Source: Escherichia coli (lineage in GTDB: Bacteria; Pseudomonadota; Gammaproteobacteria; Enterobacterales; Enterobacteriaceae). From it: 64,000 nt of DNA. Under the pieces are notes generated by a model. It had not been told where the DNA came from. It did no database searches and saw only the letters and a program-made list of their open reading frames with translations. Position numbers and translations under genes: made by a program. Positions 15,559-38,997 of this stretch are shown here, one piece after another (positions within the stretch are counted from its first letter, which is position 1; each line of letters begins with the position of its first letter). The stretch lies in NCBI RefSeq assembly GCF_044324785.1, contig NZ_CP172127.1; one strand, 5' to 3'.

Positions 15559-16719
15559 TTATGCCGGATCGACTGGTACCACATTCTCGCTTGGGTAACA
15601 GCCCAGGACTTTCATCGAGCGAGTGATTTCACCTAGCTCTTTCAACGCCTGTTGCATTTCCGCTGATTCCAGATTGGCCTGAATATCCAGATAAAACATC
15701 TCTTCCCACGGGTTTCCGTGAATCGGGCGTGATTCCAGACGGGTCATAATCAGATTGTGGTTGCGCAGTACCAGCAACGCTTCAACCAGCGCACCAGCTT
15801 GTTGGCCGGTCGCCATTAACAACGTCGTTTTCGCCGGAACCTGGTCAGAAACGTTAATGGCTTTACGTGCCAACACCACAAATCGGGTGAAGTTTTGTCG
15901 CTGATTCGCTTCAATACGCTCCAGTACTTGCAAACCGTACAAAGTGCCGCCAGCTTCGCTTCCCAACGCAGCAATATGCGGTGATTTTGCCTGTGCAACC
16001 TTTTCCATTGCCGCAGACGTACTTTCGGTATATTCAATCTTCCAGTGCGGATAACGATTAAGGAATTTGCTGCATTGCTGGAATGGCTGCGGATGGCTGT
16101 AGACCGTATTAATGGTGGATAAATCAGTAGTGCCGGAGACCAACAAACAATGATCGATAGTTAACGTCATCTCGCCAACAATCGACAAACTGGTATGTTG
16201 CAGCAGATCGTAAACGTCGTTTATGGCACCGGAGCTGGTATTTTCAATCGGTACGACGGCATAGTCGGCCTGGCCGGTTTCCACCTGATTAAAAATATCG
16301 GCAAATTTGGCGCAGCCACTTTCAATGAATTGCTCAAAGTGACGGGCAGCGTACTGACGAGCGGCAAGATGTGAATAGGAGCCTTTGGGGCCGAGAAAAG
16401 CAATGCGGGCAGAGTGTGGATTAATTTTATTGAGATGTTGCTGGAGCAAAGCCTGCTGAGTTAATACGGAATCTTCAATGATGAGCTGGAACAGGCGAGT
16501 AATGTAATGGGCGTCCAGATGGTGCGCTTTACCGAGCGTAATTAATCTTTCCAGTAAATCGCGTTCACGATCAATATCACGTACCGGGCGATGCGAGAGC
16601 AGTTTGGCTTTTCCCACCTCGACGGCCAGTTCGCGCCGCTCTGCCAGTAATGCTAATAATTTTTCATCCAGCGCGCTGATTTTCTCACGCAGCGCCAGTA
16701 ACGGGTTTTCCGATGTCAT
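15559..16719 (-). CDS. pheA: Chorismate mutase / prephenate dehydratase (P-protein)
   Basis: 386 aa, recognised sequence. Confidence 0.95.
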
Positions 16720-16740
16720 AGTGTTGCCTTTTTTGTTATC

Positions 16741-16776
16741 AATAAAAAAGGCCCCCCGATTTGGGAGGCCTTATTG
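16741..16776 (-). promoter_or_regulatory. pheA transcription attenuator (terminator hairpin between pheL and pheA)
   Basis: Minus strand reads CAATAAGGCCTCCCAAATCGGGGGGCCTTTTTTATT. Confidence 0.85.
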
Positions 16777-16818
16777 TTCGTCTTCGCATTCTGTTTCACA
16801 CGACGAAACGCCTCCCAT

Positions 16819-16866
16819 TCAGGGGAAGGTAAAAAAGAATGCGAAGAAAAACGGTGTGTGTTTCAT
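16819..16866 (-). CDS. pheL: pheA leader peptide (15 aa, seven Phe codons)
   Basis: Minus strand ATGAAACACACACCGTTTTTCTTCGCATTCTTTTTTACCTTCCCCTGA = [15 protein letters not shown]. Confidence 0.9.
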   Translation of the reverse strand: [15 protein letters not shown]

Positions 16867-16920
16867 GTTTGTTTCCTTAAGTGACTTCAGTACAGTACCC
16901 GTACTGTTTTCACGCTGTCA

Positions 16921-16950
16921 ACAAAAAACGCGCCCGAAGGCGCGTTGGCG
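16921..16950 (-). terminator. raiA terminator
   Basis: ACGCGCCCGAAGGCGCGT hairpin followed by a T-run on the minus strand. Confidence 0.7.
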
Positions 16951-16969
16951 ATACACTCAATATAAAGGA

Positions 16970-17365
<396 letters not shown>

Positions 17366-17534
17366 TCAAAATGTGTGATGGAAATCTCATAATTTTGTCA
17401 CTTTTTGTCAACGAATCTTTTTTGTGAGAAATCGCAGGAAGAGATGTTTTTTTACTTGAGGAATATCTCAAAGCGAGCCATATTTGATGAGATCGATAGT
17501 GACTAAATCGCTTCAGTTTCACAACAAACAGAAT

Positions 17535-17567
17535 AAAAAAACGGCAGCTCAAGGGCTGCCGTTTTGT
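17535..17567 (-). terminator. bamD terminator
   Basis: CGGCAGCTCAAGGGCTGCCG hairpin flanked by A- and T-runs. Confidence 0.7.
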
Positions 17568-18319: not shown

Positions 18320-18453
18320 GACGTTTTGACTTTCCTCAAAATGTAATACGGGAGATTCTCTGTTCCTGCTCCCGGTTAAGACCAGCTACAATAGCACACT
18401 ATATTAAACGGCAAAGCCGTAAAACCCCAACGATAAACGAAGAAGCAGTATAT

Positions 18454-36977: not shown

Positions 36978-37667
36978 TTACTCACTCTCTGCCGGTAATA
37001 CTGGCATCCAGTCAATCGGTTTCTCGCCACGTTGTTCCAGCCACTGATTTGCCAGCACAAAATGGTTGCAGCCAAAGAACCCGCGATGCGCAGAAAGCGG
37101 TGATGGATGCGGCGCTTTCAGTACGTGATGGCGTTGCTTATCAATAATCGCCCCTTTCTTTTGCGCATGTGAGCCCCACAACAAAAACACCACGCCTTCG
37201 CGATGCTGGTTAATCAGGCTGATGACTTTATCGGTGAAGGTCTCCCAGCCGAGGCTGGCGTGGGAATGCGCCTGACCTGCGCGAACCGTCAACACAGTAT
37301 TGAGTAGCAGAACGCCCTGACGCGCCCAGCTTTCAAGATAACCATGATTAGGGCGGGTGAAACCGGGAATAGTATTTTCCAGCTCTTTATACATATTCAG
37401 CAGTGACGGCGGTGTCGCAATGCCGGGGCGAACGGAAAATGCCAGACCATGCGCCTGTCCCGGTCCGTGATAAGGATCCTGGCCGAGAATCACCACTTTA
37501 ACGTCACCCAACTCTGTAAAGCGGAACGCGTTAAAAACATCCTTTTGTGGCGGATAGATAGTGACGCCGGACTGCCGCTCGCTGGCGACGGTCTGTAGGG
37601 TATTAAGAAAATAGGGTTGTTGCTTCTCTTCAGCCAGCACGTCATGCCAGGTTAATTCGTTTGCCAT
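36978..37667 (-). CDS. ung: Uracil-DNA glycosylase
   Basis: 229 aa [20 protein letters not shown]...[13 protein letters not shown]. Confidence 0.95.
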
Positions 37668-37850
37668 CTCGCTCTCCCGCGAATCTTCAATCCGCCTAGC
37701 TTAACTGCTTCTTTCTACAGAACAAAATCATGCTCATTTTTTAGACTTAAACGAGTGCAAAAAAATGTAAATTGGTAAAATTTCACACCTGCATAAGTTG
37801 ATGTAAAACAATAAAATCCATTTGCGACCATACTTGATGTGTGGTTTTTA

Positions 37851-37864
37851 TTGATTTAAATCAA
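37851..37864 (+). promoter_or_regulatory. FNR binding site in the grcA promoter
   Basis: TTGATTTAAATCAA, perfect match to TTGAT-N4-ATCAA, about 110 bp upstream of the grcA start. Confidence 0.8.
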
Positions 37865-37971
37865 AGATTCAAGGGTGTTTGAGGAGTATATATACACTCA
37901 AGCAACAATGGTTTTACCAATTGGCCGCGACAGGCTGAACAAATCAAATAATTTTGCCGGGGAGGCATCAC

Positions 37972-38355
37972 ATGATTACAGGTATCCAGATTACTAAAGC
38001 CGCTAACGACGATCTGCTGAACTCTTTCTGGCTGCTGGACAGCGAAAAAGGCGAAGCGCGTTGCATCGTTGCGAAAGCAGGTTTTGCAGAAGACGAAGTG
38101 GTTGCAGTAAGCAAACTGGGTGACATTGAGTACCGTGAAGTTCCAGTAGAAGTGAAACCAGAAGTTCGCGTTGAAGGTGGTCAACACCTGAACGTAAACG
38201 TTCTGCGTCGTGAAACTCTGGAAGATGCAGTTAAGCATCCGGAAAAATATCCGCAGCTGACCATCCGTGTATCCGGTTATGCAGTTCGCTTTAACTCTCT
38301 GACTCCGGAACAGCAGCGCGACGTTATCGCTCGTACCTTTACTGAAAGCCTGTAA
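37972..38355 (+). CDS. grcA: Stress-induced alternate pyruvate formate-lyase subunit GrcA (YfiD), glycyl-radical domain
   Basis: 127 aa [22 protein letters not shown]...RVSGYAVRF; the ORF-track start at 37954 is an over-extension. Confidence 0.95.
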
Positions 38356-38376
38356 GGCTTAAGTAGCAAGTTACTA

Positions 38377-38408
38377 AGCGGAAGAGGGCAACTTCTTCCG
38401 CTTTTTTC
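38377..38408 (+). terminator. grcA terminator
   Basis: AAGCGGAAGAGGGCAACTTCTTCCGCTTTTTT. Confidence 0.85.
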
Positions 38409-38409
38409 G

Positions 38410-38997
38410 TTAATAGAATATGCGTACCGCACAATAGACCAGCAACAGGGCAAGCACGATATTTAACTGGCGACCATACTGGCGAAACAATCGCTGAAAC
38501 AGATGCCCCGCCAGCGCCCAGCACACATTGCCAAACGTCCCAATCATCGCCAGCAAAACGCTGACGCCAACTACCCAGCTTAGCGCCTGCGTTTGCGGCA
38601 GGACAAACGTCGACAGTGCCGTAACGCCATACAAAATGATTTTGACGTTCACAAACTGCAAAGCAAAGCTGGCCCAAAAGCTGATTGGTTTTGCCTGAAG
38701 TCCGTCTTCCTTTGTTGGACTGGTAGCGATTTTCCACGCCAGCCAGACAATGTATGCCGCTCCTGCCCAACTCAACAGATGCACTGCTGCCGGGTCGATA
38801 ACAGCCAGTGAAAACGAAATTCCCGCACACAGCAACATGACGATTAAAAATCCCAGACTCATCCCTGCCAGCACGCGGGTACTCTGACGAAATCCGTGCG
38901 ATGTGGCTGAGCTAAGGGCGAGAATATTGTTCGGTCCTGGCGTCATGGCGGTAATCAGGGTGTAAGTCCAAAAAGCACTTAAAAGGGTCGGTGTCAC
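38410..38997 (-). CDS. eamB: Cysteine / O-acetylserine exporter EamB (YfiK), LysE/RhtB family
   Basis: 195 aa, six transmembrane segments. Confidence 0.9.
   Translation of the reverse strand: MTPTLLSAFWTYTLITAMTPGPNNILALSSATSHGFRQSTRVLAGMSLGFLIVMLLCAGISFSLAVIDPAAVHLLSWAGAAYIVWLAWKIATSPTKEDGLQAKPISFWASFALQFVNVKIILYGVTALSTFVLPQTQALSWVVGVSVLLAMIGTFGNVCWALAGHLFQRLFRQYGRQLNIVLALLLVYCAVRIFY

What the first reader, a model, noticed from the sequence alone, without database searches (positions are those of the whole stretch)
37851..37864. Perfect FNR palindrome upstream of grcA
TTGATTTAAATCAA is an exact match to the FNR consensus and lies about 110 bp upstream of the grcA start codon, consistent with anaerobic induction of this spare glycyl-radical domain that rescues oxidatively damaged pyruvate formate-lyase.
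Basis: partly seen in the sequence, partly recalled or inferred. Interest (0 to 1): 0.25.

Follow-up and report, generated by a model that had tools for sequence, protein, structure and literature searches.

The report
Known FNR site of grcA promoter
The perfect palindrome is real and is the already well-studied binding site through which the oxygen sensor FNR switches on the E. coli grcA (yfiD) gene, so the finding is correct but ordinary.

Summary
Observation confirmed. TTGATTTAAATCAA sits at window 37851-37864. It is the only perfect TTGAT-N4-ATCAA in 64 kb (0.09 expected), and its centre is 114.5 bp upstream of the grcA ATG (37972).

The window is E. coli chromosome (ung <-> grcA - eamB). 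The 14-mer is the published FNR I site of the yfiD/grcA promoter, centred at -40.5 (Class II activation). Myers et al. 2013 list this exact sequence under an FNR ChIP-seq peak, with the highest motif score of all ChIP-bound sites, and class yfiD as directly FNR-activated.

- a weaker second FNR site (TTGATGTAAAACAA, 37798-37811, at -93.5) that down-regulates the promoter under full anaerobiosis, so expression peaks microaerobically
- a PdhR box at +17 (37906-37922)
- predicted ArcA repeats at -10/+22

My own tests agree. A PWM built without the yfiD sites ranks the two sites first and second in the window. 79 of 80 orthologous loci carry a site of at least 12 bits, against 1.1% of background blocks. 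59 of 65 Enterobacterales loci keep the 52-53 bp spacing. Both 14-mers are invariant in the divergent E. coli alleles examined.

Verdict: interpretation supported, already known, low interest. The one mildly new item is a different tandem layout in Pasteurellaceae.

The parts
37851..37864 (.). FNR I site, TTGATTTAAATCAA. A perfect palindrome centred at -40.5 from the grcA transcription start. This is the Class II activating site and is the reported finding.
   Evidence: 21.1 of 21.8 bits, rank 1 in the window. Identical to the Myers 2013 Table S6 site at 2714579, which is ChIP-seq positive. The half-sites are at least 95% conserved across 66 Enterobacterales promoters.
37798..37811 (.). FNR II site, TTGATGTAAAACAA. 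One mismatch to the consensus, centred at -93.5, 53 bp (5 helical turns) upstream of FNR I. This is the down-regulating site.
   Evidence: 15.9 bits, rank 2 in the window. It is the reverse complement of the Myers Table S6 site at 2714632. 59 of 65 Enterobacterales loci have a second site at 52-53 bp spacing. Its function is taken from the title of Green et al. 1998 and from PMC10208419.
37887..37892 (+). -10 element TATATA (positions -11 to -6). No usable -35 hexamer: 0-2 of 6 matches at spacers of 16-18.
   Evidence: The TATA bases at 37887-37890 are at least 95% conserved across Enterobacterales. The sigma-70 consensus scan finds no complete promoter, as expected for an activator-dependent Class II promoter.
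37898..37898 (+). grcA transcription start (+1), imported from the literature by coordinate mapping. The uncertainty is a couple of bases.
   Evidence: Park et al. 2013 place their 32-nt ArcA element (K-12 2714524-2714555, which is window 37888-37919) at -10/+22. Myers et al. place FNR I at -40.5. Both give +1 = 37898. I could not verify this from the sequence alone.
37888..37919 (.). Predicted ArcA-P direct-repeat element spanning -10 to +22. The motif is weak (10.5 bits in Park et al.).
   Evidence: Park et al. 2013 supplementary tables. The sequence matches exactly after reverse complementing.
37906..37922 (.). PdhR box CAATGGTTTTACCAATT (12 of 14 matches to AATTGGTnnnACCAATT), centred at +17. 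It is a pyruvate-relieved repressor site.
   Evidence: Anzai et al. 2020 (PMC7660256) Table 1, grcA/ung gSELEX peak with the box centred at K-12 2714529, which is window 37914. The block is highly conserved in the Enterobacterales footprint.
37959..37965 (+). Shine-Dalgarno sequence GGGGAGG, 6 nt before the ATG.
   Evidence: The GGAG core is at least 95% conserved.
37972..38355 (+). grcA (yfiD) coding sequence, 127 aa, autonomous glycyl radical cofactor.
   Evidence: TIGR04365 233.9 bits, above the 170 cut-off. Annotated as grcA in RefSeq E. coli genomes. RVSGY motif present.
38376..38410 (+). Intrinsic terminator-like hairpin (12-bp stem) followed by a T-run, after grcA.
36978..37667 (-). ung, the divergent neighbour that shares the intergenic region. 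It is context only and is not part of the FNR-controlled unit.
   Evidence: ung/b2580 is absent from every differential-expression table of Myers 2013.

Best explanation
The palindrome is the high-affinity FNR operator (FNR I) of the E. coli grcA/yfiD promoter, a Class II FNR-dependent sigma-70 promoter.

When oxygen falls, FNR acquires its [4Fe-4S] cluster, dimerises and binds TTGAT-N4-ATCAA centred at -40.5. There it takes the place of the missing -35 hexamer and recruits RNA polymerase. That gives transcription from +1 (window 37898), a 74-nt leader and the GrcA coding sequence.

A second, weaker FNR site at -93.5 (37798-37811), on the same face of the helix, fills only when active FNR is abundant and then damps the promoter, so output peaks under microaerobic conditions. 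PdhR bound at +17 represses until pyruvate accumulates. ArcA counteracts the negative FNR effect. The product replaces the oxygen-cleaved glycyl-radical domain of pyruvate formate-lyase.

Shown here: the sequence, its position, its motif strength, its identity with the published sites, and its conservation. Taken from the literature: FNR occupancy, FNR dependence, the transcription start, and the roles of the -93.5 site, PdhR and ArcA. From general knowledge of Class II FNR promoters: the specific contacts (AR1 with alpha-CTD, AR3 with sigma region 4).
For: The site is exact and unique in the window. The PWM score is 21.1 of 21.8 bits at rank 1, with FNR II at rank 2.

The window is the E. coli ung-grcA-eamB locus.

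Published features map exactly with a single offset. FNR I and FNR II come from Myers 2013 Table S6, both under an FNR ChIP-seq peak, and FNR I has the highest PatSer score (17.25) of all ChIP-bound predicted sites. The ChIP-seq peak centre maps to window ~37836-37838, between the two sites. yfiD is in Category 1, 'directly activated by FNR', with its site at -40.5. The aerobic/anaerobic expression ratio is 0.11 (Table S12). An FNR ChIP-chip target at yfiD/ung is reported in Grainger et al. 2007.

The geometry fits: the site centre lies 29.5 bp upstream of a conserved TATA -10 motif and there is no -35 hexamer.

Conservation supports function. 79 of 80 grcA loci from Enterobacterales and Pasteurellaceae have a site of at least 12 bits within 250 bp upstream, against 1.1% of 999 background blocks. 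77 of 80 have a site with at most one mismatch, against a mean of 1.8 loci in shuffled upstream regions. The half-sites are at least 95% conserved while the flanks are 20-60% conserved. Both 14-mers are invariant in four divergent E. coli alleles and in E. albertii, with the polymorphisms falling in the spacers.

The microaerobic peak and the effect of removing the upstream site are reported in PMC10208419, citing Green 1998 and Marshall 2001. PdhR, ArcA and FNR co-regulation is in PMC3181329, PMC3798270 and PMC7660256.
Against: Nothing contradicts this explanation. The caveats are these.
- The primary papers (Green 1998, Wyborn 2002) are not in the held library, so their content is known only through citing papers and titles. 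I did not try to open Marshall 2001.
- The transcription start is imported rather than verified. It falls on a T, only 6 nt after a non-canonical TATATA.
- This window is not K-12, and no experiment exists for this particular strain, although the whole block from FNR II to the PdhR box matches the published K-12 sequences.
- A perfect consensus is not sufficient for binding in vivo: Myers Table S6 lists perfect sites that are not ChIP-bound, for example within sucC. The case here rests on the ChIP and expression data, not on the motif alone.
- Myers Table S2 labels a sigma-70 peak at yfiD/ung as 'Aerobic'. I could not interpret that; it may reflect the ung promoter.
Confidence: 0.97

Rival explanations
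1. The palindrome is a CRP (cAMP receptor protein) site rather than an FNR site, and it puts grcA under catabolite control.
For: CRP and FNR are paralogues that recognise related 22-bp inverted repeats with the same spacing. The 22-mer around the site matches 12 of 22 positions of the CRP consensus.
Against: Both half-sites read TTGA/TCAA, not the GTGA/TCAC that CRP requires. From established knowledge of the two proteins, the T versus G at this position is the base that discriminates FNR from CRP. The FNR PWM score is near its maximum. FNR ChIP-seq, FNR ChIP-chip and fnr-dependent expression have all been demonstrated.
Confidence: 0.01
2. It is a chance palindrome in AT-rich intergenic DNA with no regulatory role.
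For: 9 of 100 shuffles of the window contain at least one perfect match. Some perfect FNR consensus sites in E. coli are not bound in vivo.
Against: The position relative to the -10 element is exact. The site is conserved across two bacterial orders while the flanking bases drift. The partner site keeps a conserved 52-53 bp spacing. Binding and regulation are published.
Confidence: 0.005
3. The FNR sites also, or instead, control the divergently transcribed ung gene, which shares the 304-bp intergenic region.
For: The region is labelled 'yfiD/ung' in every ChIP table. FNR II is 137.5 bp and FNR I is 190.5 bp upstream of the ung ATG. A sigma-70 peak at yfiD/ung with an oxygen-dependent change in occupancy is listed in Myers Table S2.
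Against: ung/b2580 does not appear in any Myers 2013 table of FNR-dependent or oxygen-dependent expression. It appears only as an intergenic label. The spacing of the sites fits the grcA start (-40.5 and -93.5) and not any known ung promoter. In the orthologue scan the FNR sites were found directly upstream of grcA. I did not check whether ung is still the divergent neighbour in those loci.
Confidence: 0.03

Closest known systems
E. coli K-12 yfiD (grcA) promoter, FNR I site at -40.5 (Green, Baldwin & Richardson 1998; Marshall et al. 2001; Myers et al. 2013)
   Same: It is the same element. The 14-mer is identical, as are the partner site 53 bp upstream, the PdhR box, the ArcA element, the -10 element and the gene.
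   Different: The only difference is the strain background. The window is not K-12 or strain N3 (98.8-99.3% identical to N3, and it lacks N3's IS4 copy). The polymorphisms seen among E. coli alleles lie in the spacers and not in the sites.
Canonical Class II FNR-activated promoters (narG, nirB, dmsA, focA-pflB P6; site near -41.5)
   Same: A TTGAT-N4-ATCAA dimer site overlaps the -35 region, the -35 hexamer is poor, transcription is sigma-70 dependent, and the promoter is induced when oxygen is low. 19 of 23 directly activated promoters with a known start have their site at -41.5 +/- 4.
   Different: grcA carries a second FNR site at -93.5 that lowers expression instead of raising it, giving a microaerobic optimum. 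It is also gated by PdhR and pyruvate, whereas nar and nir are gated by NarL/NarP.
CRP Class II sites (for example galP1)
   Same: The protein family is the same, as are the 22-bp inverted-repeat geometry and the activation position.
   Different: The half-site is TTGA here, not GTGA, so the sensor is oxygen through an Fe-S cluster and not cAMP.
Engineered oxygen-responsive promoters yfiD-WT, yfiD-m and yfiD-P1 (PMC10208419)
   Same: They are built from this very promoter. FNR I is retained as the activating site.
   Different: The FNR II core motifs are mutated (yfiD-m) or the upstream FNR site is deleted (yfiD-P1) to remove the anaerobic down-regulation.

Membership tests
FNR binding site (CRP/FNR-family operator) | 14-bp inverted repeat TTGAT-N4-ATCAA | tested here: met
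   Zero mismatches at 37851-37864. 21.1 of 21.8 bits on a PWM built from 61 ChIP-bound sites, with the yfiD sites excluded.
FNR binding site (CRP/FNR-family operator) | The FNR-specific base (T at the first position of TTGA, and A opposite it) rather than the G/C that CRP requires | tested here: met
   Both half-sites are TTGA/TCAA. The match to the CRP consensus is only 12 of 22. The discriminating role of this base comes from established knowledge and was not tested here.
FNR binding site (CRP/FNR-family operator) | Occupied by FNR in vivo or in vitro | not testable with these tools
   I could not run this experiment, but the answer is published. The exact 14-mer is marked '+' for an FNR ChIP-seq peak in Myers 2013 Table S6, there is a ChIP-chip target at yfiD/ung in Grainger 2007, and Myers Table 1 cites Green 1998 for prior binding evidence.
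Class II FNR-activated promoter | Site centred at about -41.5 (+/-4) from the transcription start, overlapping the -35 region | tested here: met
   The centre is at -40.5 relative to +1 = 37898. That start was obtained by mapping two independent published coordinate sets onto the window. The centre lies 29.5 bp upstream of the conserved TATA motif. The start itself is imported, not measured here.
Class II FNR-activated promoter | Weak or absent -35 hexamer, so the promoter depends on an activator | tested here: met
   0-2 of 6 matches to TTGACA at spacers of 16-18. The sigma-70 consensus scan finds no promoter in 37600-38450.
Class II FNR-activated promoter | Expression falls in an fnr mutant and rises when oxygen is removed | not testable with these tools
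   Published. yfiD is in Category 1, 'directly activated by FNR', and is listed as 'Activated' in Table S8. The aerobic/anaerobic ratio is 0.11 in Table S12. yfiD transcript and protein are induced on shifting to microaerobic conditions (PMC3181329).
yfiD-type tandem FNR architecture (-40.5 activating plus -93.5 down-regulating) | A second, weaker FNR site an integral number of helical turns upstream | tested here: met
   TTGATGTAAAACAA at 37798-37811, 53 bp centre to centre, 15.9 bits. 59 of 65 Enterobacterales loci keep the 52-53 bp spacing. The negative function is known from the literature only.
GrcA (autonomous glycyl radical cofactor), TIGR04365 | Full-length match above the curated cut-off, with a C-terminal glycyl-radical motif | tested here: met
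   233.9 bits against a cut-off of 170, covering residues 2-127. RVSGY at residue 99.

The most novel reading that the evidence does not exclude
The finding itself contains nothing new. The most novel reading my data leave open comes from the comparison set, not the window. The tandem-FNR design of the grcA promoter is ancient but has been rewired between orders. Enterobacterales keep a strong proximal site plus a weak site 52-53 bp (5 turns) upstream. Most Pasteurellaceae loci examined (13 of 15) instead have the strong site distal and a second, usually weaker FNR-like site 42-44 bp (4 turns) downstream of it. These sites sit in front of a good sigma-70-like TTGAAA-N16/17-TGnTAAAAT promoter, which would place them near -48 and -91. 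That would imply a different oxygen-response logic for the same repair gene. To my knowledge this has not been described, though Ravcheev et al. 2007 already predicted Fnr sites upstream of yfiD in Pasteurellaceae.
Probability: 0.3. Interest if true: 0.25.

Novelty: already known. Interest (0 to 1): 0.05.

Why it matters
This adds nothing to biology. The site, its position, its partner site and its co-regulators were worked out between 1998 and 2002, confirmed genome-wide in 2006-2013, and the promoter is already used as an oxygen-responsive part in metabolic engineering (PMC10208419). Its value here is as a positive control. The first-stage reader correctly recognised a real transcription-factor operator and its target gene from raw sequence. 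The independent tests (PWM rank, phylogenetic footprint, spacing conservation) recover the published architecture without using it. The comparative data also show that FNR control of grcA, and in the Enterobacterales loci sampled the exact two-site spacing, is under strong purifying selection. That fits the idea that tuning GrcA output to the microaerobic range matters physiologically.

Tried and rejected
1. The sigma-70 consensus scan of 37600-38450 found no promoter. I do not take this as evidence against a promoter, because a Class II activator site replaces the -35 hexamer.
2. A terminator-like hairpin at 37826-37846, between the two FNR sites, is rejected. It does not follow a same-strand gene, it lies in the most polymorphic part of the region, and the changes among E. 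coli alleles are not compensatory.
3. The Rfam scan of 37500-38600 gave only a plant miRNA family at 22.5 bits against a gathering score of 100, E = 0.28. That is chance.
4. The fold of the 74-nt leader plus the start of the CDS gave z = -0.41, so there is no evidence of a structured leader.
5. The primary papers I looked up (PubMed ids 9767578 and 11932447) are not held. I relied on citing papers and on supplementary tables.
6. My first translation of grcA was off by one base. The correct ATG is 37972.
7. I assumed the window was strain N3 because an 821-bp stretch matched at 100%. That was wrong. The window is 98.8-99.3% identical to N3 overall and lacks N3's IS4 copy.
8. An upstream PdhR half-site-like sequence, AATTGGTAAAATTTCAC (37770-37786), has a perfect left half and a poor right half. 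It is invariant within E. coli but poorly conserved across Enterobacterales and is not reported as a box by Anzai 2020. I did not count it as a site.
9. The other FNR-like hits in the window (48 hits with at most 2 mismatches against 32 expected) all score below the shuffle maximum except the two grcA sites. The best of the rest, at 18326-18339 between bamD and rluD, is listed by Myers as predicted but not ChIP-bound.

Full report
**Observation.** The 14-mer TTGATTTAAATCAA is at window 37851-37864, exactly as reported. It is the only perfect match to TTGATNNNNATCAA in the 64 kb window. Dinucleotide-preserving shuffles give 0.09 matches on average. The ORF downstream starts at ATG 37972 and ends at 38355. 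My first attempt used 37973 and failed. The palindrome ends 108 bp before the ATG and its centre is 114.5 bp upstream, so 'about 110 bp' is fair. The 127-aa product matches NCBIfam TIGR04365 (autonomous glycyl radical cofactor GrcA) at 233.9 bits against a cut-off of 170, and it carries the RVSGY glycyl-radical motif.

**Where the window comes from.** An 821-bp stretch around the site is present in 5425 of 5426 complete E. coli genomes. It is annotated ung (-), grcA (+), eamB (-). The window is collinear with strain N3 at 98.8-99.3% identity but lacks an IS4 copy that N3 carries between raiA and bamD. It is therefore an E. coli chromosome, and not strain N3.

**Motif strength.** I took the 61 ChIP-bound FNR sites from Myers et al. 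2013 Table S6, excluding the two yfiD sites to avoid circularity. The reported site scores 21.1 of a possible 21.8 bits, rank 1 in the window. Rank 2 (15.9 bits) is TTGATGTAAAACAA at 37798-37811, exactly 53 bp upstream centre to centre. The best score in 30 shuffled windows averaged 13.8, with a maximum of 17.5. The 22-mer around the site matches only 12 of 22 positions of the CRP consensus, and both half-sites read TTGA, not the GTGA that CRP needs.

**Promoter anatomy.**
- The site centre lies 29.5 bp upstream of TATATA (37887-37892).
- No hexamer at a 16-18 bp spacer matches TTGACA in more than 2 positions.
- A sigma-70 consensus scan finds no complete promoter in the region.

This is the signature of a Class II activator-dependent promoter, where the activator site takes the place of the -35 element.

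**Mapping the published features.** A single offset (window = 2752443 minus the K-12 coordinate) reproduces four published features exactly, sequence included.

| Feature | Source | Window coordinates | Position |
|---|---|---|---|
| FNR I | Myers Table S6, 2714579 | 37851-37864 | -40.5 |
| FNR II | Myers Table S6, 2714632 | 37798-37811 | -93.5 |
| Predicted ArcA repeats | Park et al. 2013, 2714524-2714555, given as -10/+22 | 37888-37919 | -10 to +22 |
| PdhR box AATTGGTaaaACCAtTg | Anzai et al. 2020, centred 2714529 | 37906-37922 | +17 |

 The ArcA '-10/+22' annotation and the '-40.5' in Myers Table 1 both place the transcription start at window 37898. FNR II then falls at -93.5, the position named in the title of Green, Baldwin & Richardson 1998.

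**Published function.**
- Myers et al. mark both 14-mers as lying under an FNR ChIP-seq peak. FNR I has the highest PatSer score (17.25) of all ChIP-bound predicted sites.
- The ChIP-seq peak centre maps to window ~37836-37838, between the two sites.
- yfiD is in Category 1, 'directly activated by FNR'. It is listed as 'Activated' in the table of operons differentially expressed between wild type and the fnr deletion, and its aerobic/anaerobic expression ratio is 0.11.
- Grainger et al. 2007 list yfiD/ung among their FNR ChIP-chip targets.
- PMC10208419 summarises Green 1998 and Marshall 2001. The wild-type promoter is more active microaerobically than under full anaerobiosis, and mutating or deleting the upstream FNR site gives stronger anaerobic activity.
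- PMC3181329 annotates yfiD as ArcA (+), FNR (+/-), PdhR (-). It shows induction of yfiD transcript and protein on shifting an anaerobic culture to microaerobic conditions, and cites Wagner et al. 2001 for the PFL-repair role.
- Park et al. state that ArcA activation of yfiD works by disrupting FNR binding, citing Wyborn et al. 2002.
- ung (b2580) appears in the Myers tables only as an intergenic label and never as a differentially expressed gene.

**Independent comparative test.** I fetched 80 grcA loci from one-genome-per-species contigs (Enterobacterales and Pasteurellaceae).
- 77 of 80 have a site with at most one mismatch within 250 bp upstream, and 46 are perfect. In shuffled upstream regions the mean is 1.8 loci. 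The density of such sites is 7.0 per kb upstream against 0.053 per kb in the rest of the loci.
- With the PWM, 79 of 80 loci have a site of at least 12 bits, against 1.1% of 999 background 250-nt blocks.
- In an alignment of 66 Enterobacterales promoters, the TTGAT and ATCAA half-sites are at least 95% conserved. The N4 spacer is 70-80% conserved and the flanks 20-60%. The same footprint picks out FNR II, the TATA motif, the PdhR box and the Shine-Dalgarno sequence.
- 59 of 65 Enterobacterales loci keep a second site at 52-53 bp.
- Within E. coli, the 136-bp promoter segment differs by up to about 7% between genomes. In four divergent alleles and in E. albertii, both 14-mers and the whole block from the -10 element to the PdhR box are invariant, and the polymorphisms cluster in the spacers.

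These sequences are related, so raw counts overstate independence. The informative signal is the contrast between the sites and their flanks.

**Mechanism.** The promoter is a Class II FNR-dependent promoter with a built-in attenuator. At low oxygen, [4Fe-4S]-FNR dimers fill the near-perfect site at -40.5 first and recruit RNA polymerase. As active FNR rises further, the weaker -93.5 site fills and damps transcription, so output peaks microaerobically. PdhR at +17 blocks transcription until pyruvate accumulates, and ArcA relieves the negative FNR effect. This fits a gene whose product is needed when traces of oxygen are cleaving pyruvate formate-lyase. The sequence features and their conservation are shown here. 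Occupancy, regulation and the transcription start come from the literature. The polymerase contacts come from general knowledge of Class II FNR promoters.

**Negative results.** An Rfam scan of the region gave only a chance sub-threshold hit. The leader RNA folds no better than shuffles, z = -0.41. A terminator-like hairpin between the FNR sites is neither conserved nor kept by compensatory changes.

**Verdict.** The element is already known in full detail. Interest is low. The only mildly new item is a different tandem-site layout in Pasteurellaceae, recorded under things noticed in passing.

Noticed in passing
L043, L045, L046, L048, L051-L055, L060, L062, L063, L066, L073 (about 85-145 bp upstream of grcA at locus position 2001; 177 in L062): Pasteurellaceae grcA promoters have a different tandem layout. 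The strong FNR site is distal (127-143 bp from the ATG), and in 13 of 15 loci a second, usually weaker FNR-like site lies 42-44 bp (4 helical turns) downstream of it. In Enterobacterales the strong site is proximal and the weak site is 52-53 bp upstream. A conserved TTGAAA-N16/17-TGnTAAAAT element, which looks like a sigma-70 promoter, follows both sites and would place them near -48 and -91. The transcription start is unknown.
   Followed up: partly
L058 (Pasteurella bettyae), 400 bp upstream of grcA: This is the only one of the 80 orthologous loci with no FNR-like site at all upstream of grcA. The best PWM score is 2.7 bits, against a median of 18.9.
   Followed up: no
window 18326-18339 (bamD/rluD intergenic region): TTGACTTTCCTCAA is the third-best FNR PWM hit in the window at 14.0 bits, about the level of the best hit in a shuffled window. 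It corresponds to the Myers 2013 Table S6 site 'rluD/bamD', which was predicted but is not under an FNR ChIP-seq peak and overlaps Fis enrichment.
   Followed up: yes
window ~35737 and ~35860 (trxC/yfiF intergenic region): Published tables place a further FNR ChIP peak (yfiF/trxC, with a weak motif, ln p -7.15) and a strong predicted ArcA site (18.9 bits) here, about 2 kb from the grcA promoter. I mapped the coordinates but did not examine the sequence.
   Followed up: no
window ~16120-17545, compared with L082 16119-17544: The window lacks the IS4 insertion that strain N3 carries between raiA and bamD. Otherwise the window is collinear with N3 at 98.8-99.3% identity, so it comes from a different E. 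coli strain.
   Followed up: partly
window 37770-37786: AATTGGTAAAATTTCAC has a perfect left PdhR half-site and a poor right half, 128 bp upstream of the mapped PdhR box. It is invariant among the E. coli alleles examined but poorly conserved across Enterobacterales, and it is not reported as a box in the gSELEX study.
   Followed up: partly
window 37812-37850 and 37865-37886: Within E. coli, the grcA promoter spacers are unusually polymorphic. 654 of 5425 genomes are only 90-95% identical to the window over 136 bp, while the FNR sites, the -10 element and the PdhR block stay invariant in the divergent alleles I fetched.
   Followed up: partly
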